Assembly: GCF_028641065.1 (NCBI RefSeq) | Contig: NC_073404.1 | Location: 30,876,001-30,940,000 of the forward strand | DNA length: 64,000 bases | Reading direction: 5' to 3' | Source: Leucoraja erinacea | Lineage: Eukaryota | Shown here: positions 549-50,729 of the stretch, in pieces | How positions within the stretch are numbered: the first letter of the stretch is position 1 | How the letters are laid out: each line of letters begins with the position of its first letter | Program-made: the position numbers and the translations under genes | The notes under the pieces: generated by a model | The model's database searches: none | What the model saw: the letters and a program-made list of their open reading frames with translations, nothing else | What the model was told of the DNA's origin: nothing

Positions 549-1707
549 TCAAAGTTCATGGCTTGTGAAACCATTCGTAGAACATTGAGCATCGAACAGT
601 ACAATACAGGAACACGCAATCTCCATGCCGCACATGATGCCAAGTTAAACAAGCTCCTCTACCTGCACATGGTCCATAACCCTCCACCAATAACCCATTC
701 AGCAATCAAACTTTTTTACAAAGGAACTATTGCAGTTCTATGTATTTGTTTGGGAAATGGCATGGCATTTCTCTTGCCTACTGTCGTTGTGATTGAGAAA
801 GGTTTTATTTCTGGAATAGTCTGCAATGTTTTTCTCTTTTTCAATCTTGCTGAGAAGGCTTGAGTTGCAAGGGCAGCTGTATCGACATTATCAGCATTGT
901 TCTGATGTTCTTTTTGCTTAAACTCTAGTAAACGACTTGCAACGGATATGGTTTATAAAACACTTTAGTATGGTACTACATAGAAGCAGACCCTCGGCTC
1001 AGTTCGTCCATACTGACCAATATAGCTCAATTAAGCTAGTTCTGTATTTGGTCCACAACCCTCAAAAACTGAGACAAAGTGCTGGAATAACTCGGCGCGT
1101 GGTCAGGCAGCATCTCTGGAGGACATGGATAAGTGATGTTTTGGGTCGGGACCCCTCTACAGTTTTCCTTTCCATGTACCTGTTGGTATGTCCTCTGGCA
1201 GCTCATTCCATACACACACACCACTCTTTGTGGAAAAAGTTGCCCCTCAAGTCTCTCTCTTCTCACTTTGAAAAAACAATGTGATATCATCGTTGCAAGA
1301 ATTAAACTGTCACCACCTGGCAACTTTGGCTTAACTTCTACATTTCAAATAGTCTTTGACGATAAGCTCTGCCGTGTACAGTTTTGTATTGTCCTGACAA
1401 TGGTTGTCATCGCTCCTACATTATCAGCTCAATAAATGTTAATTTGCAAGAAGTGAGCCTGCAGCTGAGTACGGGCACCTTGTGTTTATCACGGGGGTCA
1501 TATTCCTGAAAAGCAGCACGTAATCCAAAAATGCTTAAATTAACTATATACATTTAAACGGGCAGAAATTTGAGCACGTTATTCCAAAAATATAGTATAT
1601 ATAAAACTTTATTATAAAAGTAGGTTGGTATTAAATAAACAAGCACATTATTTCATAAAAATGTAAAATCAAATATGCATTAAATGCGAGATACCTGTAA
1701 TTATTTA

Positions 1708-1925
1708 AGAAGGAACTGCAGTTGCTGGAAAATCGAAGGTACGCAAAAAAGCTGGAGAAACTCAGCGGGTGCAGCAGCATCTATGGAGCAAAGGAAATAG
1801 GCAATGTTTAAGGAAATGGGTAACGTTTCGGGCCGAAACCCATGGGGTTTCGGCCCGAAACGTTGCCTATTTCCTTCGCTCCATAGATGCTGCTGCACCC
1901 GCTGAGTTTCTCCGGCTTTTTTGTG
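1708..1925. mobile_element. Palindromic Penelope-derived hairpin element
   Basis: Two ~95-bp inverted arms around gggccgaaaccc/gggtttcggccc; 16-bp direct repeat tacctgtaattattta at 1692-1707 and 1926-1941. Confidence 0.75.
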
Positions 1926-1954
1926 TACCTGTAATTATTTACTTGTTAATTCAT

Positions 1955-2250
1955 TGTTTAGTTAAGAGATGCAACGTGGAAACACACAGTATGCTCACCG
2001 AATCCACGTTGACCAGCGATCCCCGTACACTAACACTATCCTACGCACACTTGGGGAAATTTACAGTTTACATTAACCTACAAACCCGTGCGTCTTTGGA
2101 GTGTGGGAGGGAACCGGAGCACCCGGAGAAAACCCACGCAGTCGCAGGTAGAGCGTACAAACACCGTACAGACAGCACCCATAGTCAGGATCGAACTCTG
2201 GTCTCTGGCGTTGTAAGGCAGCAACTCTACCGCTGCGCCACCGTTTCGCC
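1955..2250 (-). mobile_element. HE1-type SINE
   Basis: Reverse complement of the head (ggtggcgcagcggtagagttgctgcc), V-domain and tail. Confidence 0.85.
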
Positions 2251-8487: not shown

Positions 8488-8650
8488 GGTTAGAAGATGT
8501 GTGGGGATTGGGGTTAGGGATGACAACCAGGAAGAGAACCAGGACACTGGACAGAGATTGACTCTATTGTCATCGACTGTGTGCATGAATTTTGGGATGT
8601 GAGAAGTGCTGCAATGAGAATTTTTAAGTGTAAAAGGACATGTTTCTGCA

Positions 8651-8815
8651 AGGTAGACAAAAAAATTCTGGAGAAACTCAGCGGGTGAGGCAGCATCTAT
8701 GGAGAGAAGGAATAGGCGACGTTTCTTCTCTCCATAGATGCTGCCTCACCCGCTGAGTTTCTCCAGCATTTTTTGTCTACCTTCGATTTTTCCAGCATCT
8801 GCAGTTCTTTCTTAA
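8651..8815. mobile_element. Palindromic Penelope-derived hairpin element
   Basis: Inverted arms; TSD atgtttctgca at 8640-8650 and 8816-8826. Confidence 0.75.
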
Positions 8816-9839
8816 ATGTTTCTGCACGGGTTCCACACATAGCACCAGTTGCATGGGTGGTAAAACTCCATTGGGACTTGCATCTTCAGTGAAAGTCTTC
8901 TGCACAAGTGTCCCTTTCCCATCTCTAGGACACAGGCAAGTGCCCATTGCTTACATGGTATTTGCATGTGTATTGAACAGCTTTAGACATGATTATCTAC
9001 ATCCTTAGTTTAGTTTATTATTGTCATGTGTACTTGTCGAGGTACTGTGAAAAGCTTTTGTTTGCGTACTATCCAGCCAAAAAAAAATACTATCCATGAT
9101 TCCAATCGAGCCGTTCACAAGGCACAGATAAAGGGTACAACATTTAGCACAAGATAGTCTAATGAAAGCAAGTTTAAAGGTCTCAATGAGATAGATGGGA
9201 GATCTGGTCTGCAGTCTAGCTGAAGAGATGACAGTTCAGTTACCTGAAACTTCCTGATTCTGGAGGTGTGCGTTTTCAAACTTTTGTACGTCTTTCCTAA
9301 GGGGGGAGGGGAGAAGAGGGAGTGACCCGGATCTTGCCCGTAACCCAAAATCTTCCGGCCCGCGGCCGTATTTTTTTTCAATCATTTTCGCGATCTGGGA
9401 ACTGCAGCCAGTCACGAGGCGTGCAGGCCACCTGGGAACTGCAGAAAACTGATTGAAAAAAGACATGAAAACTAATGCAAAAAACAGCACCAAGTGTCAC
9501 ACTATGGCGATAGATGTGGCCCACCATCCACTCACAGGCATGGGTCCTGGCCCCTATGCAGAACAACTAGCATATCAGTTATTAGAAATCAATTTGCAAT
9601 TTCTGGAAGCAGTGAGGAAACAAACTTTATGTTGGTAGAAGGAACTGCAGTTGCTGGTATATACCGAAGATAGACTCAAAGTGCTGGAGTAACACAGCGG
9701 GTCAGGCAACATCTCTGGAGAAAAAAGTGTGGGTGACATTTCGGGTCGGGTGTGTGAAGAGGGGTTCCGACCCCTCTTTTTTTTTGGAGACGCTGCCTGA
9801 CCTGCTGTTACTCCAGTACTTTGTGTCTATCTTCAAGCT

Positions 9840-12860: not shown

Positions 12861-12993
12861 TCAGTCTGAGGAAGGGTCTCGACCCGAAACGTCACCCTTT
12901 CCTTCTCTCCAGAGATGCTGCCCGTCCCACTGAGTTATTCCAGCATTCTGTGTCCACCTTTGGTTTAAACCACCATCTGCAGCTCTTTCCTAC
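12861..12993 (+). mobile_element. Penelope-derived element with hammerhead-like motif at 12866-12893
   Basis: CTGAGGA-A-GGGTC-TC-GACCC-GAAAC-GTC followed by the family body and the ...catctgcagctctttcct tail. Confidence 0.7.
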
Positions 12994-13309
12994 ATACTCA
13001 ATTTTTTAGTGTAAGTTTAGTTTGTGTCACGTGTAGCGAGATACATGAAAAGCTATTTGTTGCGTGCGAACCAGTCGGCGGAAAGATAATCCACGATTAC
13101 AATCGAGCCGTCCACAGTGTACTGATACAGGATACATTTTCTCCTACATAATGTCACCTGCACTGCACACAGTAGGTCCTGCTGTCAACACGATGGAGTC
13201 AAATCCTTGCAACAATTAGTTTATCCATGCTGGGATTTTTTTTTCTGTTTGGAATACAGAGTTTTATAGTGAAATAATTTATTTGGTCGTGCTTTTATTT
13301 CTGTCAACT

Positions 13310-14270: not shown

Positions 14271-15109
14271 AATGACATATTCTGTTTAGTTTTGGCTACC
14301 ATGGGATTATTTTGATTTTCACATTTATTTAATTAATCTAGTATCTATGATTAATAGACCTTAACTTATCCTGTTAGAAAACATTTAAAATTTGATCAGA
14401 CCGTTTATTTCAGGACCCCATCTGAAGAAGGGTCCCAACCCGAAACATCATCTATCCGTTCCCTCCACAGATGCTACCTGAGCCGCTGAGTTCCTTCTGC
14501 ACTTTCTGTTTTGTTCTTGTATAGTCTGCTAGAATTCCTCGGTATAGTGTATATAATACTCTTGTGCATTACTGCTTTAGCCAATTATTCCATGCTAACT
14601 ATTGCGCTAACTATTTTCAAATTGTGCTGAAATGGCTGGAGTGTAGTGTGCTGACTTTTGCCACAGCTGGTGTTCAGCTATTGAAACCAAAGCCATTTCA
14701 CGACGTCACAATTTGGGACTGTTAGCAGATCATTGTGCTGCAGGCTGCACAATCAATTGTGCAAAGTCCAGCTGAAAAACATGCTCATGCTGCGGTGTGA
14801 GATTGCCTTCCTGATCCTGCAGCAGGTGTAGAGCCCAACTGAGAGCCCAATTGAGTTCAGTGAGGCATGTAGAGCAAGGTCAGTCTGAAGAAGGGTCTCG
14901 AGCCGAAACGCCACCCATTCCTTCTCTCCAGAGAGTTGCTGCCTGTCCCGCTGAGTTCCTCCAGCACAAAATTCCTTTTGCTCAAAATTCCAGCATCTGT
15001 AGATTCTTGTGTCCATAAATGTTTTTTAAGTGTCTGGAATATTTCATAGATCTTTATTTAATTCAAAATATTTGAAGATGGCACTTTATTTAATTCAAAA
15101 TATTTGAAG

Positions 15110-15388: not shown

Positions 15389-17899
15389 AAGGCAACATTT
15401 CACTACGACTGCAGATGTGACAATAAGAAATGTAAACCTGAATTTGTCAAAGATATAAAAAAATGTTTTAATCAAATAAAATTGACACAGGCCTGCCGAA
15501 CTATAAAGGCAGTGGGGGTGGGGGGGGTTCTGGGCTTGGATTTCCTCGTCTGAGCCCCTGTCACTTTCTAGACGGGGCCACTGGAATTTGGTTTGGGGAG
15601 AGGCGGGAGAATAGCCAGCACATCTAAAAAAGGCCATTGCAGGTTCTGAGTCTGGGGCGTGGGGACTGAGTCAGCGAGTCAGCGCCCATTAAACATAGAT
15701 TACCCAAAAAATGGTGATGCCTGGGTGATGCATGTAACCCTATGCCCGATATTACTGTAACGACCTAAAATAGCCTTGGGTGTACATGCAACTAGAGCTG
15801 AACGTCTTTTACAACATAAGTTGAGCCGTGTCAATAAAATCAAAATGCTCTGCAATGGAACATCAAACATTGCAGAAAATGTCACAAAATTGATAGAAAC
15901 TAGTAACCTTTCTTTTTACCTTGAAATTTAACATATCGATAAATAAATGATGCTTGGCCTTACTTATTAATACATATCACCTCTGACCCTACACATTCAT
16001 AACATTTCATTGTCACGAGGCAAGTGGAGACCATGACCAGTGATGTCCCATGTTAAAGATGCAATTGGTTTTTTTAAAGACCTTCCTGCTGTGGTTGTTT
16101 TCCAACCTGAAGATGGGGTCTTTGTTCAAAATGGATCTAATGAAAGAGCAGATTAAATGTGGATGAAGGAACTGCAGTCACGGTGGCACAACGGTAGAGT
16201 TGCTGCCTTGCAGCAAAATACAGCGCGGAGCCCCGGGTTCGATCCCGACTACGGGCGCTGACCGTATAGAGTTTGCACGTACTCCCTGTGATCTGTGTGG
16301 GTTTTCTCCAAGATCTTCAGTTTCCTCCCACACTCCAAAGACGTGCAGGTTTGTAGGTTAATTGGCTTGGTCAATGTAAAAATTGTCCAACTTCCAGTAT
16401 AGTCCTTGGTGGTCTCTTCGGAAGGTACAAGGTACAAGATGCTGATTTACACCAAAGATAGACACAAAATGCTGGGGTAACTCAATGGGTCAGGCAACAT
16501 CTCTGGAGAGAAGGAATGCCTTTTCTCCAGCGATGCTGCCTGACCCGCTGGGTTGCTGCAGCATTTTTTTGTCTGTCTGCTGAGAGAGCAAATGAGTAGC
16601 ATTGTATCTGGCGGCCCCATGCTGCTGAATGCCTGCCTGTTGCTATGTAAACAAGACAACAAGTTCCCTATTTGTGGATGGAGATTCCTGAGTGCCATAC
16701 TGTTGCATGTTGCATTTTGAAATGGCTCGAGCATGTGGCAGGGGAGGACCTAAGAATAACTCGTGATCAAAGGAAGCTTTTTTAAAAAGATTTCCATGAG
16801 ATCATTTTGTGCAGTCAACACAAGTTATTTGTGTAAACTCTCTTCCAGAGCATTGCACCAATTCTCTCCAGGGTTGCCAAGTATTGATCAGAATCAATGT
16901 GGGCTGCACAATTATTGATACATGTACATAATGTGAGAACTTAATCTGTGTCCTTGCTCCCTCTTGGGTAGGCTGGCTGAAACGTCTGCATGCTGCAAAT
17001 ACCAACATTGAATGTTGTATCCGCACCTGTTTCTGTCCAGCCTAGCTACTGTAAGGTGAACTTGGGACGGCACAGTTGTGCAGCTGGTAGTGCCGCTTAC
17101 CTCATGGCGCCAGACATCCATATTCAATCCCAACCTGTGTGGAGTTTGCAGGTTTCCCCAGTGACTGCGTGGGTTTTCTCCAGGTGTTCCGGTTTCCTCC
17201 CACATCCCAAAGACGAGCGGGTTTGTAGGTTAATAAGGCTCTGTAAATTGCCCCTAGTGTGTAGGGAGTGGATGAGAAAGTGAGATAACATAGTTGTAGT
17301 GTAACCGGCTGATGGGTGATCGTCATAGACTCAGCGTGCGGGCTGAATGGCCTGTGGTTCTCTAGGAGTACCGTCAGTCTACAAAAATAGGTTTCTTCTA
17401 TTCGTTCATTTGTTTTCTTTGAAAGAATTGCTTTTGCAGACGAATGCCTGACATTTATTGACAACCAACCATAAGCTAAATAACACGCTTTGTGTACAAT
17501 TTACCTCAACAAAGGATTTTTTCATGAGAGGATATGGGGAGAAGGCAGGCACGGGTTACTGATTGTGGATGATCAGCCATGATCACAATGAAGGGCCAAA
17601 TGGCCTCCTCCTGCACCTATTGTCTATGTTTCTATGTTCCCAACATTTCCAATCTGACAATTAGATATCAAGTTCCAAATCCTTGCCTTGTGTTTCATCT
17701 GCAAAACATGTCCACTGATACTTGGATGGCATGGAAAGGAACTCCAAATGGTGGTTATAGTAAGCCGAGTAATGACAAGTGCAAAACAGCAGTGGCACAC
17801 GGTTATCGTGCAAAATCTGAGTAGTTCAAAAGGATATTAAAGTATAAAACTGAATAACCAAATGAGTTAGAGTTAAGAGTACGTGACAGTTCAGAAGTT

Positions 17900-18660
17900 A
17901 TAAGAGCAGAATTAGGCCATTCAGCCCATCACGTCCACTCCGCCATTCATTCTTGGCTGTTCTATCTTTCTCTCTCAACCCCATTCTCCTGCCTTCTCCC
18001 CGTAACCTGACACCCGTTCTAATCAATCTCCATCGTAAAAGTATCCACTGACTTGGGCCCCGCAGCCTTCTGTGGCAATAAATTCCACAGATTCACCACC
18101 ATCTGACTAAAGAAATTCCTGCTCATCTTTCTAAAGATACGTCCTTTAATTCTGAGGCTGTGCCCTATGATCATGGAATCTCCCACTAGTCGAAACATCC
18201 CCTCCACATCTTCTCTATCCATCACCTCTGTGAATGGGGTATGAAAGATGCTTCAGGAGTAGGTTAGCATTGGGAAGAAGCTGCTCTTGAGTCTGCATGT
18301 CTGGGCTTTCTAGCTCCTGTGTGTTCTCCCAGAAGGTAGTGGAGAGAAGAGGGAATGTCCAGGAAGGTTGGATGTTGGACGTTGGAGAAGAGGGTCTGCA
18401 GCCTTCCTGATACAACGCACCGTCAATGCACTGGGTGAAAGAATGTGATGAGCCTGTGATGGCCTGGGCTGCCTTCACCGCTCTGTGCAAGTCGAGGGCT
18501 GAGCAGTTACCACGCCAGGTTGAGATGCATCCCATCAGAATACTTTGTAAAACGTATCTGTCAATGTTGGAGAGGATCCTCGTGGACAAGCTGAATCTAC
18601 CCAAACGCCTAAGAAAGCAAACACTGCTGCTGTTGTTCCTCAAGCTGGTTCTGGACTGAT
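17900..18660 (-). mobile_element. CR1 3' fragment (about 17900-18220) next to a Rex1/Babar-like fragment (about 18225-18660)
   Basis: ORF 18019..18225 (GHSLRIKG..FFSQ.VVNLWN) and ORF 18215..18802 (FLRRL..F.LS..IL...SILMGCI..W.GNCS). Confidence 0.75.
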
Positions 18661-19452
18661 TGATCATTAGCTGGAAGCATACGCAGGATTGGAGCGGGGT
18701 GGGGGTGGCTGAAATTCCCCTAGTTTGCCCCATACCTGGGCCCTGCACACATCCTTGTTTGGTTTCAATGCTCAGCTGTGTCAGTAGGGCGGGTCTAATC
18801 AAGATCAGTAGATACGAGAGTTCCCTTTGAAAAAGTAATGATTAACGGGAGACTTTCAGTGTTGGAATTCATGACTTTCTCAGCATTGTGATAGATGGGT
18901 GCTGGGTAAAAAGGATCGTAAGAGACTGTTTTAAGAGGAGCTTCACATAAGATGTCACCACTCTTTCAAACGTGCTCAACTACTGTCTGACTCTTGATAC
19001 CATACATGATTCAAAAATAAATGGTTCCAACACTGCTCCTTAGTTTGTTTGTGTGTATGTATGTCTTCTTGTAAAGTTATTGAATGTAGATGGCAAAACC
19101 TGTCCTTAGTTGTCCTGAGTTTGGTTCTGCTGCTGCGCTACTTGGATTGCTGCAATACCATGGTATTTAGAAGGAAAGGAATTGTTCACATACTGCACGA
19201 CCCAACATCGTTTTTCTTTGCTCTTGTATTGTTAATCTATTTTTTTCAATCACAAGCAAGGACATTCGGCATCACTGGTTTATTCCTTGTTACTTTAACT
19301 GTGTTTTACACTTTTCATTAATGTACTTGAACTGGGTACAGCTTGCCGTTGTTTGAGTGATTGTTTTCTCTGTAATAGTTCACTGCAGATTGCTTTCTAC
19401 AGATATCTTTGTGCACAGAATGGACACTAATTTTGGATTGTTCTCCTTGCAG

Positions 19453-22089: not shown

Positions 22090-24742
22090 GTACGTACGCG
22101 GCCTTTACTGCCATCAGCTCTTGCCTTGTGTATTGTTAAAGTGCTGATGATAAGCTAATGTAGACAACACCAGAGCCAATCTGTACATGGCGAGATCGCA
22201 CAGCCAGCAACCTGACGATGACCCGATACGTTAACAATAAGATGAGCTATCTCTCCGCACTTCTCCAAGATGCAAGCCCACATTATGGGGTACAGCGATG
22301 GATTTGAACCCACAATGGCCCGAGTCAGAGGAAAGTACTGTCCTGAGAGTCGGACCAACCCCAAGATAATACTTCTGGGAGGGAAGCCTAAAAAGTCACT
22401 AAACAGGGTGGCTCAGCTTCCATTGTGGAATGCCTTTAGCCTCACTGCTAAATCCAAGGTACTTGAGGTGATCGGGGCGGCATGGTGGCACAGCGATTGA
22501 GTTGCTGCCTTACATCGCCAGAGGCCCGGGTTCAATCCTGACTACGGGTGCTGTCTGTATGGCGTTTGTACGTTCTCCCCGTGACCTATGTGGGTTTCCT
22601 CCTACTCTCCAAAGACGTGCAGGAGTGCAGGTTAATTGACTTGGTAATTTTGTAAATGGTCCCTAGTATGTGTGGGATAGTGTTAATGTGCGGGGATCGC
22701 TTGTCAGCGCAGACACGGTAGGCCGAAGAGCCTGTCTGCACGCTGTATCTTTTAACTGAGCTAAGTGTACATTGCATTCTAGCTGCTTCCTGCTAGACTA
22801 GAGAAATCCCTGTCCTTTGTTTGTGTTCCTGCTATTTGAACAGCAGCCTGATCAAATAGAAACAGAGTGATATCACTGATGTCCTGGCTAATGTTTATCC
22901 AGCAATAAACTTCACTGAGCTGGTTGTTATCTCATTAAAGTTTCATTATATTTTGTTCTCGAGGAGCGTGCCACTTTCTAATGGGGTGTTGCCATTCCTG
23001 CATCAATGATTATGCTCCGAACATAACGGATACAAGTGCTGGAGTAACTCAGCCGTTCATGCAGCATCTCCGGTGAATATGGATAGGTCTAATGATGCTG
23101 CCTGACCCACTGAGTTACTCCAGCACTCTGAAACGTCACCTATCCATGTTCTCCACAGATGCTGCCTGACCCACTGAGTTACTGCAGCAGCATCTATGGA
23201 GCTAAGGAACCTATCCACTGTTCTCCACAGATGCTGGAAATGACCCGATGAGGCCGAAACCCTTAGCACTCGGCCCGAAACGTCACCTATCCATGTTCTC
23301 CATAGATGCTGCCTGACCCGCTGAGTTACCCCAGCACTTTAGGACTTTTTGTGTAGACTAGTAACTGCAGTTCCTTGTTTCTGCATGCTTCTAAATCACA
23401 TATAGATACCATATAAAGGCACATCTTTCTCGAAGCATTGGCCATGCCTTGCACCAATAATCATTATGGATCATTGTGCTGTAGCTAGCCTGGTCGATGT
23501 ATTGTATGCCTAGATGATCCAATATTCATAGGCAGTTATAATCTGTCAACATAACATAGCTGAGTGGGAGATGAATATCCTTGGACGATTTCTTCAGTTG
23601 TTTCTGATGCATTACTTTGTGCAGACATATCTGAACATGCTGGTGCTAACGGTAGTTTCTCTTCAGATTAAGAAGACTATTTTTATGAGCTACGATAAGT
23701 AGTTGAGCTCCAGATAGTCAGTGGCATGCAGACTCTATTCAGCTGCCACCTTATTAGGAAGCTGATGGCTCAACCTTTTGAAGGGAGATGAGCAGAAGTA
23801 CTATTGATAGGTTTGAAATATGGGCAGCTAAGTTCATGGAGTTGTCAGGTTAAAAACTGCTGTCTTCTGGACTGCACGGCGGAATCCTAAAAGGACTGGG
23901 AAGACGGTGCAGTTTAAATAAATCAATTCCAACGTTTCAGTATTGTTAGAACCTCCAGCCTCTTGAGACATGATAAAGCAAACTTGCCCCCACCACCCTG
24001 GCATAGATCTATGTGACCATATGGATTAGTTACTAAACCGCAACTGTTATGGTTTCTTTATTGGTTGATCAGCCATTGTGAATGGGGAAAATGTACGCGC
24101 TGCTTTGTACATCTTCCATTGTCCACATCCCATCCCACACTAGATACCCCTTTGCGTGTGTTCAGACCGCCTTGCCACTTCAGCATGGGAACAGAGCCTT
24201 TAGCCTCTCTGCTAAACCCACAATAAGTGAGGCGATCAGGGGTAGCAGCGGTAGAGTTGCTGCCTTGCCGCACCTCAGACCCGGGTTCCATCCTGACCAT
24301 GGGTGCTGTGCTGTCTGTACGGAGTTTGTACGTTCTCCCTGTGACCTGTGTGGGTTTTCTCCAGGAGCTCCTGGTTCCTCCCACGCTCCAAAGACGAGCA
24401 GGTTTGTAGGTTAATTGGCTTCATTCAGCCCGTATGTCTTGTGATCTATGATCTTCTGCTTGCACGTGGCAGTGTGCAGGAGTGCATGTCCAGAACACGT
24501 TGACCGGCATGACGTCGCTCACCCTTGCTCCTTTTTGCAAACACGGGCTAAACTCAAAGCAGTCCAGCCCATTATTCATTCATCTGGTTTTCTACATTTC
24601 AGCAAATCTATTTATATGGATTAGAAGTGGAGAACTGCTTTTGAAATCGTTTTCCCAATTCAATGGCTGATCGCGATGAGAAATCAATGAGTGATGTTTG
24701 GAATCTTTGTCAGTTGGAATTGGTTTGCGCACAATACACTCA

Positions 24743-25054
24743 AGGGCCTGTCCCACTTACGCAATTTTTTTCGGCGACTATGCCGGCACCCGACATAGTC
24801 GCAGGAGGTCTCCGAAAATATTCAACATGTTGAAAATCCAGCGGCGACCAGAAAAAGGTACGACTACATTGGGCGACTGCTCACAATCATACAGGCATCG
24901 CCCCGTGAATCACAGGCCGTGAGTAGTCGCCCAAAGAGTTGTACCTTTTTCTGGCCGCCATTTTGAAAACATGTTGAACATTTTCGGAGACCTGCTGCCA
25001 CTATGACGGGAGCCGACAAGTCGCCGAAAAAATCGCGTAAGTGGGACAGGCCCT
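24743..25054. mobile_element. PIF/Harbinger-like MITE (same family as 98-329)
   Basis: TIR agggcctgtcccacttacgc / gcgtaagtgggacaggccct; interior is largely palindromic. Confidence 0.8.
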
Positions 25055-29115: not shown

Positions 29116-29169
29116 CTCTAGTCTCCTTCATTCCATCAATCATGTTAGACAGTAATCCATCAAGGTAAA

Positions 29170-29397
29170 GTATGTAGGAAGGAACTGCAGATGTTGGTTT
29201 ACATTGAAGATAGACACAAAATGCTGGAGTAACTCAGCGGGACAAGCAGCATCTCAGGAGAAAAGGAATGGGTGACGTTTCGAGTCGAGACCCTTCAGCA
29301 GTCTGAAGAAAGGTCTCAAACCAAAACGTCTCCCATTCCCTTCTCTCCAGAGGTGCTGCCTGTCCCGCTGAGTTACTCCAGCATTTTGTGTCTATCT
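29170..29397. mobile_element. Inverted-dimer Penelope-derived element retaining CTGAAGA (29303-29309)
   Basis: Two inverted arms; TSD tcaaggtaaa at 29160-29169 and 29398-29407. Confidence 0.75.
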
Positions 29398-29749
29398 TCA
29401 AGGTAAAAGTGTGGCTGCTTATCCAGTTTTAGGTTTGGGAAGCAGATGAACTGAGTTGGATGATCAGCCATGATCATATTGAATGGCGGTTTAGGCTCAA
29501 AGGGCCGAATGGCCTACTCCTGCACCTATGTTTCTATGCCTAGTTACGTTCAGTGATTTCAAATTCTGATTCTTGTGTGCTCGAGTGTTATTGCAGAAAT
29601 TCTACCTTTTTGTGTTAAGCTATTAATGTTTATAAAAATCTACAAATTGAAAGGTTAGTGTTTTCTTTAGATGCCGGCTTCCTAAGCATAACTACCAGTG
29701 TGACGATAAAATAATTTGATTCTAAATATGTCATCTTTTTACCCGTCAG

Positions 29750-29950: not shown

Positions 29951-31818
29951 GTAGGTGCATCGCTGTGGATTTAGTGTCTGAAGTTGGTTCAATTTATAAT
30001 GTCTGCAATGTCTTGCTTTTCTTTTGTTTTCCTGATTCACAATTTCTCTCTATTTGCCTCTCACAAACTGGATTTGGTGTGATAGAACGGCAGGCAGGGC
30101 TGCCATGTACATCTCCACGCCTTCCACAGATGGTGCTCTAGAGCCGAATGCCGCAGTGCCACCCAAGGTAGAGCCACTGCCGATTTTCCCCCTCTCTCCC
30201 AGTTAGCTGGGCACCTTGTGTCTGCACGGTCCTCAGTCACACAAACCCAGCTCGCCGCCTGTGAATGCCAGCGTCAAACTGAATTGCAATTTGAATCAGG
30301 GTCTCCCATTGTGAGAGACTCTTCCATTTGGGAGTCCCATCTCAAAATGGAAACCCAAGATGACAATCAATTGGCATTATTCTGAGCAAACCACAAACAG
30401 GCAAGTTCCATGAACTCCAGCCTCCCTGTTCTTTGTGACCTGCAGTACTCAATGTGTTCTGTAATCTTGCGCTTTTGTGGAAGGTATTATGCTGTAAAAA
30501 GACGGTGGTGTGGCTTGTGGTTGCTGTAGAACGCCTTCATATAAAACAAACCAGCTTCTTATTCCTTTACCTAAAGATTTACCTGTCATTTCTACTTTCA
30601 ATGTAAAGAGCTGTGCATAGTGGGTGTGAGACGGAGTAGAGATCTGTAGCAGGCATGCATCTAGCAAACAAAGTTGCAGCGAGTTTGCTTGTAGGTTGAT
30701 CAGAGCTTTCATCTGAGTCGTTCTGTGTCCAGACTTGGTGACAGCGGTGTATTGAAAGAATAAAGTAATCTGGAGAGCTGAGTGATCTACTGCAATTTAT
30801 TTTCCTGATTCTTCTTGGATATTCTTGAGCTTTCAACAACGTTGTCACTGTCTGCTGAACAATTGGCTTAGAACTTTGGCCAATTCCAGAAATATCGAAG
30901 CACCCAACTTGCCCTGATACAAAGCACGTTATAATAAAGAGGTTGGTGGAAAGAAACCAAAGCTCGCAGTTCTTTCCATCATTTTGGGGACATTTTGAGT
31001 CGTGCACGACTACTATCTACATCCTATTTTATTTCACTGAATCAGAGTGAATTCTTTCTCAAGATCCGTTTAGTGTAGAGTCCTAGTGTAAAGCGGATTT
31101 GTGTTTTGTATAATCTTGTTTACTGAGCATGTTCCACAGTCTTGAGCAACATAAAGTATAATTTGAAGAAGGGTCTCAACCCGAAATGTCATTTATTCCT
31201 TCTCTCCAGAGATGCTGCCTGGCCCGCTGAGTGACTCCAGCATTTTGTGTCTATCTTCAAAGTATAATTGGATCTTGACTGCCAGGTTATCATGCCTCAC
31301 CCTATCAGAGAGATTCCCTTTGTTCTACTACATCCCTCCTCAACCTCCTCAGCCGCCTGCTACTTAACGTGTCCTCTTTCCTTTTCAGTTCTGATGAAGG
31401 GTCCCAGACCTGAAATGGTCACCATTTTTTTTTCCACAGATGCTGCCTGATCTGCCAAGCATTTTGACCATTTTCTATTAGGTTCTCAACATTATTGCTC
31501 TTTAAACAGTCAGCTATGTTTATGTTATGTTACAGCAGTTCTTCCTGTGGTCTGCATTTTACTAAGTAATATGATCGACATTTATGCTTGTGCATATGGG
31601 ATGAAATTGTATCAATAAATAAAATCAGTAGTACTTCATTATCGCATGTGCCTAGGTACTGTTCTTTTGTGTACACAGTGCAGTAACAATCTGACTCTGC
31701 ACAGACAATCATACTTAAATAAAAGTCTATAGGATGATAGATTACACTGAGTCGGTACACAAGAGTTGTCACGAATCTGCCACTATTTTGTAGCATTCAA
31801 GTTGTTAAAAATGCAGAG

Positions 31819-32369: not shown

Positions 32370-32815
32370 CATGAGAGTTTATTGTCATGGACTGATCAGA
32401 CAATGAAATTCTTGCTTTGCTTCAGCACAACAGAACATAGTAGGCATGAATACAGAACAGATCAGTGTGTCCATATCCCATTATATAAATATATACACAC
32501 ATGAATAAATAAACTGATAAAATGCAAATAAACAGATAATGGGCTATTAATGTTCAGAGTTTTGTCCGAGCCAAGTTTAATAGCCTGATGGCTGTGGGGA
32601 AGTAGCTATTCCTGAACCAGGTCGTTGCAACCTTCAGGCTCTTGTTCCTTCTACCTGAAGGTAGCGGGGAGATGAGTGTGTGGCCAGGATGGTGTGGGTC
32701 CTTGATGATATTGCCAGCCTTTTTGAGGCAGTGACTGGGATTGATCCCCTCGATGGAAGGGAGGTCAGAGCCGATGATGGACTGGGCGGTGTTTACTACT
32801 TTTTGTAGTCTATTC
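32370..32815 (-). mobile_element. Rex1/Babar-like LINE 3' end
   Basis: ORF 32554..33000: RLQKVVNTAQSIIG..DPHHPGH.L..PLPSGRR..FRNSYFPTAIRLLN, plus 3'UTR with AATAAA. Confidence 0.82.
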
Positions 32816-33989
32816 TTGATTCCCCTGCCCGGGGTGGGTAAAGATATGGAGCTGGGCAAAAGCACGGGGGATGACTCGTGTGGGTGTGCAGTGGTGGAGC
32901 AGAGGAAGAAAGTCTGAGATATTTGGAGAAGGGTAATGAAACACAAATTAGCAGACATTAAAAAAAGTTGTAATTTCTGCCTGTGTGTGGTGGACATCAA
33001 TACACCAAGCTACTGTTCTAACTTTATGTTTTTGAAGTCGGGGGTTTAGTTTCTCTAGCTAGTCTGAATTGGGGACACTGTTGATGTGTTTTCATGGTAC
33101 CAGAAGGTATCTTCCAGCACAAAAGTGTTTTAACAACAAATCCTGTGTAAAAGATTGCGTTACAAAACACCAAGATCTCTTCCCTGCTGAGCATTTGAGT
33201 TTGCTTGTCTCCGTCAATTAAATATCATTTCAGATCTCAAAATAGTTCTAATTGTGTAATGGGAAAGATGATGCTGATGCAGCCTGCATTTATTTTGATC
33301 AGCAGGGTTTCCGAACTAACAACCAAGCACTTTGGATTGGGAAATTGCATTCCTCGTTGGCTGGCTTTTTCTCAGCCGCTGTCTCTGGTGGTTCTGGTGG
33401 TGCTTTGGTACAAATAACCAAATATTAAGCAGGTGGACTTGTGATGTCTTACAGCAACATACAGGAGCTTCACGGGTTATCAGTAACCTGACCTACAGAA
33501 ATCCCACCACTCAAATCCATTTTAAAGCATTTTTCAAGCTAGCAATGATAAAATGTTTAGTGGTATTCATTAAAGGCTGGTTGCAGAATATATTCCATTA
33601 GTTTAATTCTGAGTGGTTCTAGACCGATAAATTAATGAAGTGAATTGTGTAGAACAATACCACGTTGGTCGTCTGAAGAAGGGTCTCGACATGAAATGCC
33701 ACCCACTCCTTCTCTCCAGAGATGCTGCCTGTCCCGCTGAGTTACTCCAGCACTTTGTGCCTGTCTTCAATTTAAACCAGCATCTGCAGTTCCTTCTTCC
33801 ACCACATTGGTAGTTATGGACGCCATCGAAAGTGAATGTGTGTGACTGGCTGGGAAATAGGCTTGTATAGTTCTCAGGAAGGGAATCCCTGCCTGACCCA
33901 CGCACCACCTGTATTTATGTTGATAGGATAGTGACACTATCGAGAAGATTTTATGTTTTTTTGGGTACTGCTTATGTAGAGACCCTGGT

Positions 33990-34400
33990 TCCCCACAGCA
34001 CCAGAGACCCTGGTTCGTGACCTTGGATGCTGTCTGTGCGGAGTTTGCATGTTCTCCCTGTGACCTCGTGAGTGCTCCGATGTCCACTCTCACCCCAAAC
34101 ACATGCAGGTTTGTAGGTTTAAGAAGGAATTGCAGACGCTGGAAAATCGAAGGTAGACAAAAATGCTGGAGAAACTCAGCGGGTGCAGCAGCATCTATGG
34201 AGCGAAGGAAATAAGCCGAAACGTTGCCTATTTACTTCGCTTCATAGATGCTGCTGCACCCGCTGAGTTTCTCCAGCATTTTTGTCTACCTCAGGTTTGT
34301 AGGTTAATAGGCCTCTCGAAATTACCCCTAGTGTGTAGGGAGTGGATGAGAAAGTGGGAGAATATCGAACTAATATGAACAGGTGATCGAATGTTCGACA
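33990..34400 (+). mobile_element. HE1-type SINE with a hairpin element inserted at 34120-34291
   Basis: SINE sequence caggtttgtaggtt is duplicated at 34106-34119 and 34292-34305 around the hairpin. Confidence 0.85.
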
Positions 34401-35186
34401 TGGATGTTTTCAAGAGAGAGTTAGATTTATCTCTTGGGGCTAACGGAATCCAGGGATATGGGGAGAAAGCAGGAACAGGGTACTGATTTTGGATGATCAG
34501 CCATGATCATATTGAATGGCAGTGCTGGCACGAAGGGCCGAATAGCCTACTCCTGCACCTATTTTCTATGGACTAGGTGGGACAAAGGGCCTGTTTCCAT
34601 TATGTATCAATCCAAAAAAATATCAATCTGCAATTTTCGGTGGTCGACAAAAATGCTGGAGAAACTCAGCGGGCGAGGCATCATCTATGGAGCGTAGGAA
34701 ATAGGTGACGTTTCATCACCCATTTCCTTCGCTCCATAGATGCTACCTCACCTGCTGAGTTTCTCCAGCATTTTTGTCCATCTTCAATTTTCCAGCATCT
34801 GCAGTTCCTTCTTAACCAATCTGCAATTTTAAGTCATTCACTGAATTGTGATCATCACATCTGCCATTTAATGTTGCACATGTTTATATTCTGCTGCATT
34901 GTGTAACTCTGGAGATATTGAGAAAACAACGTGCCCTTCTGCTCACTCCGAACTGTTTGTAATGCAGTGTGACTGAGGTGGAACGTGATATCAGGCTGCT
35001 GGTTACCATGTGCCCATGCTTCTGCTTGTCCTTGTGTACACGTGTCCTCTTCTACAGCACCACTGTTGCTGAGGTGCATGCATCACGAGGTTTGAGACCA
35101 GGAAATTAGTGATATCATCCGCTCAAAATAGACAATATCAAATTGTCTCTTCTTCAAAAACAAATAGGAAAAGATAAACACAAAAC

Positions 35187-35700
35187 ACATCTCCGGAGAA
35201 CATGGATAGGTGACGTTTCACAGAGTGCTGGAGTAACTCAGCGGGTCAGGCAGCATCTGTGGAGAACATGGATAGGTGACGTTTCACAGAGTGCTGGAGT
35301 AACTCAGCGGGTCAGGCAGCATCTATGGAGCTAAGGAAATAGCTCCTTTATTTCCAGAAGGATTTCGGCCCGAAAAGTTGCCTATTTCCTTAGCTCCATA
35401 GATGCTGCTGCACCATAACTCAGCGGGTCAGGCAGCATCTGTGGAGAACATGGATAGGTGACGTTTCACAGAGTGCTGGAGTAACTCAGTGGGTCAGGCA
35501 ACATCTGTGGAGAACATGGATAGGTGACGTTTCACAGAGTGCTGGAGTAACTCAGCGGGTCAGGCAGCATATCTGGAGAAATAGGATGCTCTCCCAATCC
35601 ATATTCTCTAGATCAAAATCCATGTTCTCCAGAGGTGCTGCTTGACGTGCTGAGTTACTGCAGCATTTTGTATCTATGGTGTAAACCAACATCTGCAGTT
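35187..35700. repeat. Tandem array of a 66-bp unit derived from the Penelope-type element, with an embedded cassette
   Basis: Unit cagagtgctggagtaactcagcgggtcaggcagcatctgtggagaacatggataggtgacgtttca is repeated. Confidence 0.85.
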
Positions 35701-37449
35701 CCTTTTTATTACATTTTATATAACTAGGAAGATGGTGCAAGGACACAGAGTGCTGGAGTAACTCAGCAGGTCAGGTCTGGAGAACATGGATAGGTGATGG
35801 TTCAGGTCAGGACCCTTCAAGGGTGTCGACCCGTAACATCACCCATTCATGTTCTTCACAGATGCTGCCTGACCCGCTGAGTTACTCCAGCTGCTCGTGT
35901 CCTTTTGTGTATTAATCGGCATCTGTCATTCCTTGTTTCTATGTTGCTCCAATGTTGGAGGTAGTGTGAAAAGGGAAAATGGCTGCAGATGTGTGTACAT
36001 CAGAGGAACCTCATCGGGCAGTGTTGATGCCAGCATTAAAGTTTGGTGCCAGCTCTTTTCCAGGGAGCCAACCTCACCTGCCTCTCTCAGTACTCTTGAA
36101 GTCAGGGGGGGAGAAGAAGAACCATTTGCCTCCTCTGCTCCCAAAATCAATAAACTGCTGCAGATTTCTGCAACCTAGCCTTGCCACATCTTATAAATAT
36201 TCAGACCTCTTTACTTTGTAACTGGAATTAATTACTGAATAATGATTTATTGAAAGGTAGTAGTTTTCAATATTGCAGTTAGCAGGGTCGTCGTGAGTCA
36301 ATGTTGTAGGGGGTGGCATGGTGGCACAGTTATGGAGTTGCTGCCTCACAGCACCAGAGACCCGGGTTTGATCCTGACTACGGGTGCTGCCTGCATGGAG
36401 TTTGTACGTTCTCCCCGTGACCGTGTGGGTTTTCTCCAGTTTCCTCCCACACTCCAAAGACGTGCAGGTTTGTAGGGTGATTGGCTTGGTATAATTGTAA
36501 ATTGTCCCTGGTGTGTGTAGGATAGTGTTGGTGCATGGGGATCGCTGGTCGGCACGGGCTCAGTGAACCAAAGGGCCTGTCCCTGCGATGTATCTCTAAA
36601 GTATAAGTCTGTCGTGTTCTGTTCCAAAGCACTCTTTAGGTCCAATATAACCTATCTACACACTTCTATCTAGAGATACAGCCTTGAGTGAATGATTTGA
36701 ATGCTTTAATTTCTTTGCATCAACTGGTATTCTATAAGAGGGCCAATTAAAAGGTTTTAGTGGACTGATTGCAACCTCCTGATGAGGAATGTTTTTGACC
36801 TATCCTGCTGATTTAATTGTTGATTTCCACTTTTTATGAAAATTAACGAGTTCTAATTCACTTTTACAAAAATGTATGGTATTACGTTTTAACGAACTAA
36901 GATTACTATCTTGTCTTCACCCTCCTCCTCTTTCTGCTAACGGCCAGAGAACTGGCCCATATTTCCTTAATTGCTTCGAGAATATAGGGTGGGGAGCAAG
37001 AGGCAAAAGAGTTTTAGTGCTGCTGTAAATTTAATATTGCATCAAGAGATATTGGTTTTTGTAATTTTATAGTAATTTTGTTTTTACGGACTGATTTGAT
37101 GAGATATTTAGTGTCAAATTGAAACAATTTTTTCCTGTCTCCATGTTAATTTGAGATGAATTGGATTATTGTCTGGTTCTAGGTTATAAAATTGTAGCAA
37201 CAAGCCCTTGAAGAATGTGTACAATCCAGAGCACAACAAGAGGAGTACTGTTGGTGGAATTCTTCAAATATTGAAAAGTTCAAACGCTTCTGTTTTGTCT
37301 GTTGCATTGGACAGGGTTTTCAGGGAAACAGATTCCTGAACAATCACTTTATTTCCATGTGATGTATAACCGCGTTCTGCTCTATGTGGGATAGATATCT
37401 GTGTGTGACGGTGTTTTAACTTTGAACTTTTTGTTCTCCATGAATGTAG

Positions 37450-38293: not shown

Positions 38294-38339
38294 GTAAAGC
38301 TCACAAGTAGACACAAGCAATTGCACATGCTAGTTTACA

Positions 38340-39828: not shown

Positions 39829-40038
39829 AGGTAGACAACAGTGCTGGAGAAACTCAGTGGGTGCAGCAGCATCTATGGAGCGAAGGAAATAGGCAACTTT
39901 TCGGGCCGAAACCCCTCGGGTTTCGACCCGAAAAGTTGCCTATTTCCTTCGCTCCATAGATGCTGCTGCACCCGCTGAGTTTCTCCAGCACTTTTGTCTA
40001 CCTTCGATTTCCCAGCATCTGCAGTTCCTTCTTAAACA
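39829..40038. mobile_element. Near-perfect hairpin Penelope-derived element
   Basis: ~85-bp inverted arms plus a one-sided tail cttcgattt..catctgcagttccttcttaaaca. Confidence 0.78.
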
Positions 40039-42787: not shown

Positions 42788-45700
42788 CTCTTGTCGGTTT
42801 CTGGACAAGAGGCAGATGGGTTTATTCAGAAGGAACATGCACTTTACAATTTGTTTTCTATATGTGAAATGCGTGTTTTATTTTGTGACGACTGCATGTG
42901 AACCTTGGGCTTTCTGTAGTTGGTTTTGATTTGAAATTGTCCTGTTTAAACCCATTGTTAAAGAGCGCACCAACCAACACAGATCAAGTTTGTGATTCAC
43001 AAGCCCCCTCGAAACCAAAATCAGGGAAACGCTGCTCTTTGTGAAACATTTCATATTGTACAAACTTAACGTCACTTTTGTAACTTTTGCATTGCTTACC
43101 GTTCATAATGTGTTTGGACTGAATTCCCTGATGCCCGTCAGAAGGAAAACATGAGTGCAGCTGATCCTTCGGCCCATGCCATTCTCTCGCTTGTCGTGCA
43201 GGGAATGATGGAAGGCACCANNNNNNNNNNNNNNNNNNNNNNNNNNNNNNNNNNNNNNNNNNNNNNNNNNNNNNNNNNNNNNNNNNNNNNNNNNNNNNNN
43301 NNNNNNNNNNNNNNNNNNNNNNNNNNNNNNNNNNNNNNNNNNNNNNNNNNNNNNNNNNNNNNNNNNNNNNNNNNNNNNNNNNNNNNNNNNNNNNNNATTA
43401 CCGATCTATTCCCTGCTGGCTGGCTTTCACACACACTGTTGGATGCATCATTTTAACCTACGCAACGTGCTGAAAATGTTCAGAGTGAAATTGGTTTACA
43501 TATGTTTTGTCAGTTTGTATTTTCCCTGTAAGATGGTCTGCTTTCAGGGTGAATGTGAATTATTACTTGAACTCTGCACTGAGCGATTCCTCAGCCCCTC
43601 CATATCAGTGTCTGGAGGAGTCCTCCTTGCAACTGGCATCTGCTCTTTATTACTCTGTGTACCCTGTCTGGTTTGCAGGCAGACGTAAATGCACCTGAAC
43701 CATAACGGAGTCACTTTTCAAAAGTGCTATATCCTTCAAAGATGCTCCCTTTTCATTCATTTTATAAATTGCTGATTTGGATTTATTTTTTTTGCATTTT
43801 TGTTAAAAGACGTTTGTTCCTGTTTAATAAAACAACTTTCCCCTCTTTCCTGCTCCTTCCCACTTCTTGCTTGAAAGAACAATTTGATAAAGACTAAATT
43901 ATTTAATTTAACTGGAATTATCTTTGTTCCAGCCTAATAAAATTCAACAGGTGGTTTCCCCTCTTCTCTCCCCACCCTTTTCTTGCTTGAGAGCACACTT
44001 TGATACGGATTAAATGATTACATGAAACTGGAATTAATTGCAATCTGCTATCTATTTCAATGTGGTGGGTTGTCAGGATCGCCCGCCATCCTCGTATCTG
44101 CACACCTCCGTGCCGTGAAGAATAATATCGGTGATACCCAAACTCCAGGTTGTACTGGAAACTTGTGGCCAACAAGCTGAAGATGTCAGTAATATTCTTG
44201 TAATTATTTTCTCTCCCGTCATTCTCACCGTAGCTCGTGGACGTTCTCTGCCATATCCAGAGTGCACAGTTCTTTGAATAACTGCAAGGATTTTTGTGCT
44301 GTGTGTGTGTGTGTGTGAGAACAAACGCCTGGTTTTAAAACGGTGACACCCAAACTATACCGGACATCTGTTGCTGTTAGGAATGTGGTCTGGGTTAGCT
44401 GGAAATAAGCATCTTTTTTACAAATTGAACAGTAAACTACTGGCACTGACCAAGCAGAAATGTTGTTATAAGATTCAGCAAATGGTCATCATCATGAGAA
44501 ATGATTATTATGGGGGGGAAATGGAAAAGTCTAAAACAAGATTTGGAACATTAATTAAGAATATATTTGCTATAGTCATAGTCTAAATTATAAAGTAGAA
44601 TTTCACATTGTTATTATAACTAGTGTTCTTGTCTAGTCCCGTGAAATTGTATTTGGGCAAATGGGCAATTCATACATTTCTTAAACATGCAAAAAGATTC
44701 TCCCCGTCCAACTTCCCATGTCTAGAAACACTACTGCAACTTTCTTGGAGGAACAGTGCTGGGTTCAATCTCTTCCCACTGTATAGGGCAGGTTTATAGT
44801 GCTCTCATCACTCCCTGTGTCTCTGTAGTGCGAGTGTGGATTCCTGTATCCCTTATTCTCCCTGCCCCAGTCCTCTGCTGCTTTAATGTGTACGAAGGAA
44901 CTGCAGATGCTGGTTAAAACTGAAGATGGACACAAAACGCTGGAGTAACAGCGGGTCAGGCAGCATCTCTGGAGAGGAGGAGTGATGAGAGATGCTACCT
45001 ATCCCGCTGTGTTACTCCAGCTTTCTGTGTCTATCGCTGCTGTTGTAACATGCTGAGCCTTGTAACCTTATTCACACCCGCCTGTTGGTCTGTTTAGGCT
45101 GCTGGTCTGTTTGACTTCACAATCCCTGCAGTTAGGAAACTAAAAAAAAAATAGCTGGGATGTTCAGGATTGGGCTGTTCCGGATTGGAATTGCTGTAGG
45201 CCTTAATTCAGTTGTAACCTTCAAAAACATAGCCTCAATGTATACGATATGATTTTTAATAAAATCACCATCTGCCCATGCCTGTAGCAATACTGCATTG
45301 TCCACTTTTCATTTAATGACCGCCCCTATTGTAAATTGTTCAGGATTGGGCTGTAACGTTTGAATTCCTGTACGTCCTAGTTCAGTCGTAACTTTCAAGA
45401 ACGTAGCTGGGATGTTCACGATAAGCTTTGTATGTAAGATCTCCCCGTGCCTGTAGTAATATTGCATTGCCCACTGTCCATTTAACCGACGCCCCCCCAT
45501 TGTAAATAAAAGGGAGAGTTGACGACTTTGTGTATCTTGCCTGGAACATGTGAAATAGTGTAGCTGACGGGCTAGGCGGGAAACCATTAAACATAGATGT
45601 CACCAGTCTCTGGACCTCTGCTGTTGCAAAGTTACTTTTGAAGCCACTGCTGTTAACAACTTTGAAAGGGCATTTTTGTACAAAGTGAGTCTTTTATAAC

Positions 45701-47451: not shown

Positions 47452-48656
47452 GCAAGATGTCATTTTGCTTTGTTAATGTTACACTTCAGGCTCTTTTTTA
47501 ATTCCAGTTCAGTTAGTTTATTGTCACGTGTGTCAAAGAACAATTAAAAGCTTCTGTTGCGTGCTAACCAGTCAGTGGAAAGACAATACATGATTACAAT
47601 CGATCCATTTACAGTGTACAGATAGATAACTTGTTTTTCTTCAAGACAGCAAGGGATCGGAATAGAGGGTAGACAAAAGTTGCCTATTTCCTTTGCTCCA
47701 TAGATTTCCTTTGCTCCATAGATGCTGCTGCACCCGCTGAGTTTCTCCAGCACTTTTGTCTACCTTCGATTTTCCAGCATCTGCAGTTCCTTCTTAAACA
47801 AGGGATTGGAATACCCTACCAGCCAGCATCAGGGATCTCCAAAACATCAACACATACAAAGATGCAACTCCAAAAGTATCGACTAGCATGTCCGACACCA
47901 TCATAGTGCTGAGTGATTCTCTACCTAGAGCTGTCCAGCGTATTACATCCAGATCTAGGTACATAATAAGGGAATAATGGTTAAACCAGCAATGTCTAAT
48001 CAAGGATAGTTCGAGGGTCATCAATGATAATAGAATTATAGACTTGCAGAGCTGAGCAGCACGGAAACAGGCCATTCAGCCCACCTTGTGCATGCTTTCA
48101 CACCTCTGCATCAGTTATAATGTTGTAAACATGAAACAAGCCCTTCGGCCCACCTTGTCCATATCAACCAAATTGCCATTCTTGGCTGGTTCCATTTGCC
48201 CGTAGCCCTCTAAAACCTTTCTATCCAAATATCAGCGTGAATATCTTTGGAAAAGTCATAATTATATCCGCTTTTACAGCTTCCTCTGGCAGCTCGTTCC
48301 AGATACCGACTGCACGCTAAGTGGAATAAGTTGAGTTTAGTTTATTGTCACGTGTACCGAGGTACAGTGAAAAGCTTTTGTTGCATGCTGACCGGTTAGC
48401 AGGAAGACAATCCATGATTACAATCGAGCCGTCCGAGTTGTGTACAGATACATGATAAAGGGAATCATGTTTAGTGCAAGGTAAAGTCCGATCTCTGCTA
48501 GTCCAAAAGTCTCCAATGAGGTAGATAATAGTTCAGAACCGCTCTCTAGTAGTTGGTAGGATGGTTCAGTTGCCTGATAACTTGCCCCTGAAGTTTCTCA
48601 TCATTCTCTCTCCTCTCACCTAAAGCTGATGCCCTCTAGCTTTAGAATTCTCTACC

Positions 48657-50540: not shown

Positions 50541-50729
50541 ATAACTGCGCATGGGTATTTCCGCGGCTGATTGGCGGGTGGACTCTGCCCTCTGCGGCCG
50601 AGGCTCATGAACTCTGACCTTGCCGGAGCCGGCAGATACGTTCCCATGGCCGATTTTGCGGCCGGTATCTCGGCCCCTCCCCTTGGCGGTCAAGGCGGAA
50701 CGATCCGGTACCGTTGGACTCGTCACGGA

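What the first reader, a model, noticed from the sequence alone, without database searches (positions are those of the whole stretch)
1692..1941. MITE-looking hairpins have long, variable TSDs and a one-sided tail, implying retrotransposition
Seen: the palindromic elements are flanked by direct repeats of differing length and sequence. These are 16 bp (1692/1926), 11 bp (8640/8816), 10 bp (29160/29398), 14 bp (34106/34292), 14 bp (34624/34817), 15 bp with one mismatch (47650/47799) and 8 bp (54279/54472); a single-arm copy has 11 bp (31153/31259). In each hairpin one arm stops near tgtctacc while the other runs about 35-40 bp further (..catctgcagttccttcttaaaca). Established: cut-and-paste MITEs have fixed-length TSDs and symmetric ends, whereas Penelope elements form inverted terminal repeats with a short tail extension and variable TSDs. 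Inference: a hairpin-shaped, RNA-mediated non-autonomous element that annotation could mislabel as a DNA transposon.
Basis: partly seen in the sequence, partly recalled or inferred. Interest (0 to 1): 0.75.

Follow-up and report, generated by a model that had tools for sequence, protein, structure and literature searches.

The report
Penelope retroelement hairpin insertion scars
These short hairpin-shaped repeats with flanking duplications of varying length are real, and they are likely heavily truncated head-to-head insertions of a Penelope-like retroelement, a pattern already described, rather than DNA transposons or a new kind of element.

Summary
All 8 claimed direct repeats (8-16 bp) are present exactly; only 1 of 240 cross-paired junctions reaches 8 bp, and no single duplication length fits. 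The arms are copies of one ~130-nt unit. In 13 of 14 simple hairpins one arm carries the tail and the other does not. Centres differ from copy to copy, a single-arm copy has its own duplication, and young arm pairs share private variants (2 of 720 permutations). So the hairpins are likely built at insertion from one template, not copied as hairpins. This is the published PLE 'inverted truncated copy plus one-sided 30-40 bp tail' architecture in miniature, and this scan has already noted it 19 times in at least 5 other genomes. Not shown: a link to an RT+GIY-YIG gene, and empty sites. Retrotransposon origin is supported, MITE rejected, a hairpin-shaped master unlikely. Ordinary; interest 0.2.

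The parts
1692..1707 (.). left target-site duplication, 16 bp (7-16 after allowing for junction microhomology)
1708..1841 (-). long arm: sense unit from hammerhead stem II to the tail end; tail about 1708-1741; 19-nt internal duplication 1791-1828
1842..1844 (.). 3-nt loop at the head-to-head turn, just upstream of hammerhead stem II (the CUGAAGA half of the core is absent from both arms)
1845..1925 (+). short arm, ending at the short 3' end, no tail
1926..1941 (.). right target-site duplication
8640..8826 (.). hairpin copy, 11-bp duplication, short arm left and tailed arm right
29160..29407 (.). hairpin copy of subfamily A, 10-bp duplication, damaged hammerhead core in both arms
31153..31269 (+). 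single-arm copy from hammerhead core to the short 3' end, 11-bp duplication
34106..34305 (.). hairpin copy, 14-bp duplication
34624..34830 (.). hairpin copy, 14-bp duplication
47650..47813 (.). tailed arm with only an about 18-nt inverted short arm, 15-bp duplication (1 mismatch)
54279..54479 (.). hairpin copy, 8-bp duplication
9637..9835 (.). older hairpin, long plus short arm, degenerate duplication
16437..16577 (.). older hairpin, long (partly lost) plus short arm, no duplication found
44886..45033 (.). older hairpin, long plus short arm, no clear duplication
52393..52560 (.). older hairpin, long plus short arm; turn at the palindrome of the hammerhead core
12862..12996 (+). single tailed arm with an intact minimal hammerhead motif (12866-12893)
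14881..15012 (+). single arm with a hammerhead motif from 14885 and a different (C-type) tail
33669..33800 (+). single tailed arm reaching the hammerhead core

Best explanation
Each hairpin is two head-to-head copies of one ~130-nt hammerhead-bearing unit, one with and one without a ~35-nt tail, between direct repeats of 8-16 bp, and is likely a single, extremely 5'-truncated insertion of a Penelope-like retroelement built at the moment of integration. Inferred steps: the RT/GIY-YIG protein nicks both target strands about 8-15 bp apart. One 3'-OH primes reverse transcription at the tail site and the other at the short site about 35 nt upstream, most simply on the same RNA. Both cDNAs stall at or within the hammerhead region, their ends join through 2-6 nt of inverted microhomology, and repair fills the staggered nicks to give the variable duplication. 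Shown here: the repeats, the motif, the long-plus-short pairing, the differing centres and the shared arm variants. Not shown: the enzyme, the RNA, the order of steps.
For: Duplications exact, and above chance (8 of 35 units versus 1 of 240 controls); no common length after microhomology correction. Hammerhead pattern: 4 exact matches versus 0.14 expected, agreeing with the published consensus for PLE minimal hammerheads, including the unpaired base before helix II, its opening G-C pair and the palindromic CG before the cleavage triplet (PMC4209133). One long plus one short arm in 11 of 11 aligned hairpins (0.5^11 = 0.0005 if ends were independent coin flips) and 13 of 14 when 47650, 35741 and 27257 are added. 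Single arms end at either site (short: 31153, 27718; long: 12860, 33670, 28297). In the 6 younger hairpins both arms share 13 derived states; 2 of 720 arm re-pairings reach that. Centres differ in all 14 units printed, and 6 read by eye as 2-6 nt overlaps (8640, 16455, 34106, 47650, 52399, 54279). Published: inverted 5'-truncated copy plus 30-40 bp tail at one end (PMC8557442); 8-10 bp duplications around inverted pLTRs (PMC3846280); a lizard PLE protein nicks and extends both strands, starts at two internal sites that bound the tail, and is predicted to be a dimer (PMC11167929).
Against: No RT or GIY-YIG coding sequence is linked: none in the window (motif scan; Pfam on 8 of 38 listed ORFs), none in microbial or viral collections, and the arm peptide found only 2 proteins without PLE domains. 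Empty sites were not examined. The shared-variant signal is absent in the 5 older hairpins (40 of 120 permutations), and it could also come from gene conversion between arms or from a hairpin master. Centre microhomologies would also result from later deletions in a longer palindrome. The two 3-nt centres (1692, 39812) turn at the same place. 27257 looks short plus short and the complex unit at 38311-38895 has tail-like ends on both sides. No covariation supports the proposed RNA stems (0 of 16 pairs). 27 of 35 units have no duplication of 8 bp or more.
Confidence: 0.8

Rival explanations
1. Same PLE origin and same insertion-time assembly, but by fold-back: one nick primes at the tail site, the cDNA stalls near the hammerhead, self-primes on a short inverted match and copies itself back as far as the short site, then joins the second nick. 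This is a sub-variant inside the 0.8 of the best explanation; I put about 0.45 on two primers and 0.35 on fold-back.
For: Explains shared arm variants and centre microhomology without two RTs on one RNA; self-priming at inverted junction palindromes is proposed in PMC3846280.
Against: Short-ended single arms, one with its own duplication (31153), suggest the short site is itself a priming site, as in vitro for the lizard element. Fold-back after a short-site start should give short-plus-short hairpins; only 1 of 14, a degraded one, looks so.
Confidence: 0.35
2. A hairpin-shaped non-autonomous master is transcribed and retrotransposed as a hairpin; differing centres arise later by deletion in unstable palindromes.
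For: All 7 subfamily-B units with a duplication are hairpins or partial hairpins; 1692, 39812 and the complex loci near 38600 and 53171 turn at the same point before stem II; no arm extends more than about 5 nt upstream of the core.
Against: Loop sequences differ (3, 3 and 4 nt, unlike each other); both orientations of truncation and single arms with either end exist; the same long-plus-short architecture recurs in three subfamilies. Two outside proteins translate through a B-type arm and continue upstream in residues compatible with the core, suggesting B arms extend beyond this turn elsewhere (inference from peptides only).
Confidence: 0.13
3. A MITE (non-autonomous DDE transposon) with terminal inverted repeats.
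For: Near-perfect 165-230 bp palindromes.
Against: Duplication length varies from 8 to at least 12-13 after correction; no shared target motif; ends are asymmetric by about 35 nt; hammerhead motif; single arms with duplication.
Confidence: 0.02
4. The hairpins are assembly or library artefacts (fold-back chimeras, gap filling through a high-copy repeat).
For: The assembly has 7 N gaps, and five complex loci share near-identical scrambled interiors (94-98% over 230-287 nt among three of them).
Against: The simple hairpins have locus-specific duplications, arms diverged by 3-22% and distinct centres, which artefacts would not give. The artefact reading may hold for the complex loci only, which were excluded from counts.
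Confidence: 0.03

Closest known systems
Insertion units of endonuclease-bearing Penelope-like elements (Penelope/Poseidon type): inverted 5'-truncated copy, one-sided tail (PMC8557442 passages; PMC3846280 passages)
   Same: Head-to-head inverted copy, 30-40 bp tail at one end only, duplications of varying length (8, 9, 10 bp reported), short palindrome or overlap at the inverted junction.
   Different: Here both copies are cut to 20-135 nt, with no ORF and no direct pLTR; duplications run to 16 bp; the long-plus-short pairing is nearly strict, where the papers say 'often' or 'optionally'.
Poseidon of Anolis carolinensis, PAc (PMC11167929, first two of four parts read)
   Same: Hammerhead followed by two start sites that bound the tail; both strands nicked and extended; AT-rich targets (duplications here 69% AT versus 56% in the window).
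   Different: PAc's ORF starts in the hammerhead; here the sense arm keeps no frame across subfamilies. 1-5 nt junction matches are common here, while PAc starts without homology. No sequence comparison was possible (no text hit in its 3 supplements).
Minimal hammerheads of metazoan PLEs (PMC4209133, parts 1-2 and supplement file 2 parts 1-2)
   Same: Core, unpaired base before helix II, G-C opening pair, palindromic CG, cleavage triplet; solitary motifs genome-wide and pairs 100-700 bp apart on opposite strands are reported there.
   Different: No cartilaginous fish among its 56 examples (0 hits for shark or skate; file 1 not searchable). Helix I here is only about 2 bp in what remains, and most hairpin arms have lost half the core.
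Metazoan non-LTR retrozymes (PMC7229834 passages)
   Same: Short, non-coding, type I hammerhead, longer duplications.
   Different: Retrozymes are head-to-tail tandem repeats of 150-450 bp with canonical ribozymes; these are head-to-head with minimal, mostly broken motifs.
MITEs (general knowledge, recalled)
   Same: Size and palindromic look.
   Different: Fixed duplication and symmetric ends are both absent.

Membership tests
EN+ Penelope-like element insertion | Single ORF with telomerase-like RT and GIY-YIG endonuclease linked to the repeat end | tested here: inconclusive
   No such ORF in the 64-kb window; no whole genome held; microbial and viral collections hold no relatives; arm peptide search gave 2 proteins without PLE domains. 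Absence is expected for truncated copies.
EN+ Penelope-like element insertion | Minimal type I hammerhead near the 3' terminus | tested here: met
   4 exact core matches versus 0.14 expected; 13 arms reach the core with mismatches (one duplicate row dropped from 14); matches published consensus. Helix I weak; cleavage untested.
EN+ Penelope-like element insertion | Inverted, head-to-head 5'-truncated copy | tested here: met
   14 simple hairpins with both 3' ends outward.
EN+ Penelope-like element insertion | 30-40 bp tail at one end only | tested here: met
   11 of 11 aligned, 13 of 14 overall.
EN+ Penelope-like element insertion | Variable target-site duplication | tested here: met
   8-16 bp raw, no common length after correction; not confirmed at empty sites.
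EN+ Penelope-like element insertion | Direct pseudo-LTR / partial tandem with ORF | not testable with these tools
   Needs a full-length copy; none in the window.
MITE / TIR DNA transposon | Fixed-length duplication | tested here: not met
MITE / TIR DNA transposon | Symmetric terminal inverted repeats | tested here: not met
   One end extends 19-42 nt beyond the other in 11 of 11.
Non-LTR retrozyme | Head-to-tail repeats, each with a whole canonical hammerhead | tested here: not met
   Hairpins are head-to-head; the only tandem arrays (66 nt) lack the first half of the core and may be assembly products.
Self-propagating hairpin family | Copies share one centre junction | tested here: not met
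   14 of 14 centres printed differ; two share the turn position only; later deletion not excluded.

The most novel reading that the evidence does not exclude
The template is a dedicated ~130-nt SINE-like RNA that begins at the hammerhead core, and the nearly strict long-plus-short pairing of arms from one lineage is the genomic footprint of a PLE dimer priming both target strands on one RNA molecule at the two start sites. Thousands of such miniature insertions in cartilaginous fish genomes would then be a ready dataset for the unresolved second-strand step of PLE integration.
Probability: 0.3. Interest if true: 0.5.

Novelty: new member of a known kind. Interest (0 to 1): 0.2.

Why it matters
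Modest. For annotation: abundant palindromes of this kind should be classed as Penelope-type retroelement ends, not MITEs; I found no paper on such mislabelling (search 48 listed 2 unrelated papers) and did not test how pipelines label them. For mechanism: how PLEs form inverted copies and finish the second strand is stated as open, and these small, numerous insertions record both start sites and the joint, so a genome-wide count could separate two-primer from fold-back models. The repeat is also read into gene models: a little skate protein record contains a translated arm.

Tried and rejected
No whole genome is held, so no genome-wide table was possible. Rfam: 31 weak matches, all below gathering score, mostly miRNA-type hairpins; no hammerhead family hit; rejected as matches to any palindrome. 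Motif scans of metagenome, viral and prokaryote collections: 0, 0, 0; a shorter motif gave 81 loci, of which 5 had weak profile hits confined to the motif region in coding-looking DNA, judged chance. Public runs of 6 coded organisms hold 0.25-0.79 of the words of a 9.5-kb stretch (20 of 24 rows), but no reads were laid, so this is no evidence on empty sites. Sense-arm folding: z from -1.07 to +0.22 in 5 of 5 arms; the stem between arm core and tail is paired in 94% of cells but has no compensatory change; not used as evidence. Conserved ORF in the arm: rejected, frames differ between subfamilies. Hammerhead cleavage site as the turning point: rejected as a rule; turns lie upstream of the core, before stem II, at the core palindrome and downstream. 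Literature: the arm motifs occur in no held paper nor in the searched supplements of three PLE papers; searches listed no paper on this skate or shark family or on twin priming in PLEs; subscription papers and Repbase/Dfam were not searchable. Five complex loci (23030, 35188, 38311, 53018, 54700) and the one-sided remnant at 20509 were left out of the long/short count.

Full report
Observation. The focal unit at 1692-1941 is a 218-bp imperfect palindrome between two exact 16-bp repeats. With one search box applied to 35 repeat units, 8 had a flanking repeat of 8 bp or more, against 1 of 240 cross-paired junctions. A ninth, about 13 bp with an A-run slip, flanks the hairpin at 39828-40038. The unit at 47650 has only an 18-nt inverted arm. 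Some repeat ends also match the element's own continuation (0-5 nt), so true staggers are ranges. These run from 7-8 (54279) to 12-15 (47650) and about 13 (39812), so no single length fits (with 1692 and 34106 corrected by eye).

Anatomy. A profile built from six window copies finds 72 arm matches. In sense, the unit begins with a hammerhead core, stem II and the second half of the core, runs about 65-70 nt to a short 3' end, and a further 35 or so to a tail end. The core pattern occurs 4 times exactly where 0.14 is expected and agrees with the consensus for minimal hammerheads of Penelope-like elements (PMC4209133). None of the 8 listed copies has an exact core. Three subfamilies differ mainly in the tail. 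Thirteen arms reach the core (14 rows, one duplicate); they share about 5 nt upstream and nothing beyond, apart from hairpin partners. The host is probably a skate or ray: the arm peptide occurs at 84% identity in a little skate protein record. This is an inference.

Architecture. Hairpins are head to head with both 3' ends outward. In 11 of 11 aligned hairpins one arm ends 9-18 nt and the other 34-53 nt past a common anchor. Adding 47650 and 35741 (long plus short) and 27257 (degraded, short plus short) gives 13 of 14. Five complex loci and one remnant were left out; one of these, 38311-38895, has tail-like ends on both sides. Single arms end at either site, and 31153 has a short end and its own 11-bp duplication. 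All 14 printed centres differ, and six read as 2-6 nt overlaps. In the six younger hairpins the two arms share 13 derived states, reached by 2 of 720 re-pairings; in the five older ones there is no signal (40 of 120).

Mechanism. Shown: the repeats, the motif, the two ends, the pairing, the centres. Taken from papers: PLE insertions often carry an inverted 5'-truncated copy and a 30-40 bp tail at one end (PMC8557442, passages), with 8-10 bp duplications (PMC3846280, passages). The anole Poseidon protein nicks and extends both strands, starts at two internal sites that bound the tail, and is modelled as a dimer (PMC11167929, parts 1-2 of 4). Inferred: two staggered nicks prime at the tail site and the short site, most simply on one RNA; both cDNAs stall around the hammerhead, join by inverted microhomology, and repair makes the duplication. 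I give 0.8 to insertion-time assembly by a PLE, split about 0.45 for two primers and 0.35 for fold-back; 0.13 to a hairpin-shaped master; 0.02 to a MITE; 0.03 to artefact.

What is not shown. No RT or GIY-YIG sequence could be tied to the arm, so membership rests on the motif and the architecture. Empty sites were not examined, so the duplications rest on within-window statistics. Shared arm variants can also come from gene conversion, and centre overlaps from later deletion. The RNA stems show no covariation.

Comparison and novelty. It works like, and is very probably, the miniature form of the known EN+ PLE insertion unit; it fails both MITE tests and the retrozyme test. I found no paper describing this particular family (subscription literature and repeat databases not searchable; one supplement file of PMC4209133 could not be searched). 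This scan has noted the same pattern 19 times in at least 5 other genomes; those are unchecked AI notes and are not counted as support. A curation guide lists inverted pLTRs and short 3' extensions as known peculiarities (PMC8969392, passages). Verdict: real, new member of a known kind, interest 0.2. The one point worth a genome-wide count is the nearly strict long-plus-short pairing with a hard 5' limit at the hammerhead.

Noticed in passing
window 35188-35712, 38311-38895, 53018-53430 (also 23030-23381, 54700-54875): Complex loci with 66-nt head-to-tail arrays of a partial arm and the same scrambled interior, 94-98% identical over 230-287 nt including identical junctions, set inside older, dissimilar arms. 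Either gap-filling artefacts of a short-read assembly or a composite unit copied whole.
   Followed up: partly
window 37409-38407 and 40694-42787 (+): Two large open frames that look like the last exons of a slingshot phosphatase (SSH2-like) gene; the name is recalled from the C-terminal residues, and Pfam gave no hit. The hairpin at 39815 lies between them.
   Followed up: no
window 46617-47459, 53628-54191, 59603-60604: 3' fragments of a CR1-like LINE ORF (label recalled; no Pfam hit for the two scanned); two share exact 40-mers.
   Followed up: no
window 50571-51782 (+): 403-codon open frame resembling the C-terminal part of an L1/Tx1-type ORF2 (label recalled; no Pfam hit).
   Followed up: no
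window 18215-18841 and 32554-33009 (-): Degenerate LINE-like C-terminal fragments (L2/Rex-type, recalled).
   Followed up: no
window 1978-2150: A SINE-like repeat typical of fishes and sharks begins about 35 bp after the focal element (recalled likeness).
   Followed up: no
window 1791-1828 and 47686-47723: 19-nt and 18-nt tandem duplications inside long arms at the same pyrimidine-rich stretch after the hammerhead, perhaps polymerase slippage.
   Followed up: no
protein P0003: A little skate nmrA-like protein record contains a translated arm of this repeat, preceded by residues compatible with a tiny inverted short arm, as at 47650; probably a gene-model error or exonisation.
   Followed up: partly
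window 56565-56860 and 24781-25018: Two other inverted-repeat elements unrelated to this family (44-nt arms 98% complementary; 51-nt arms 88%), candidates for true MITEs.
   Followed up: no
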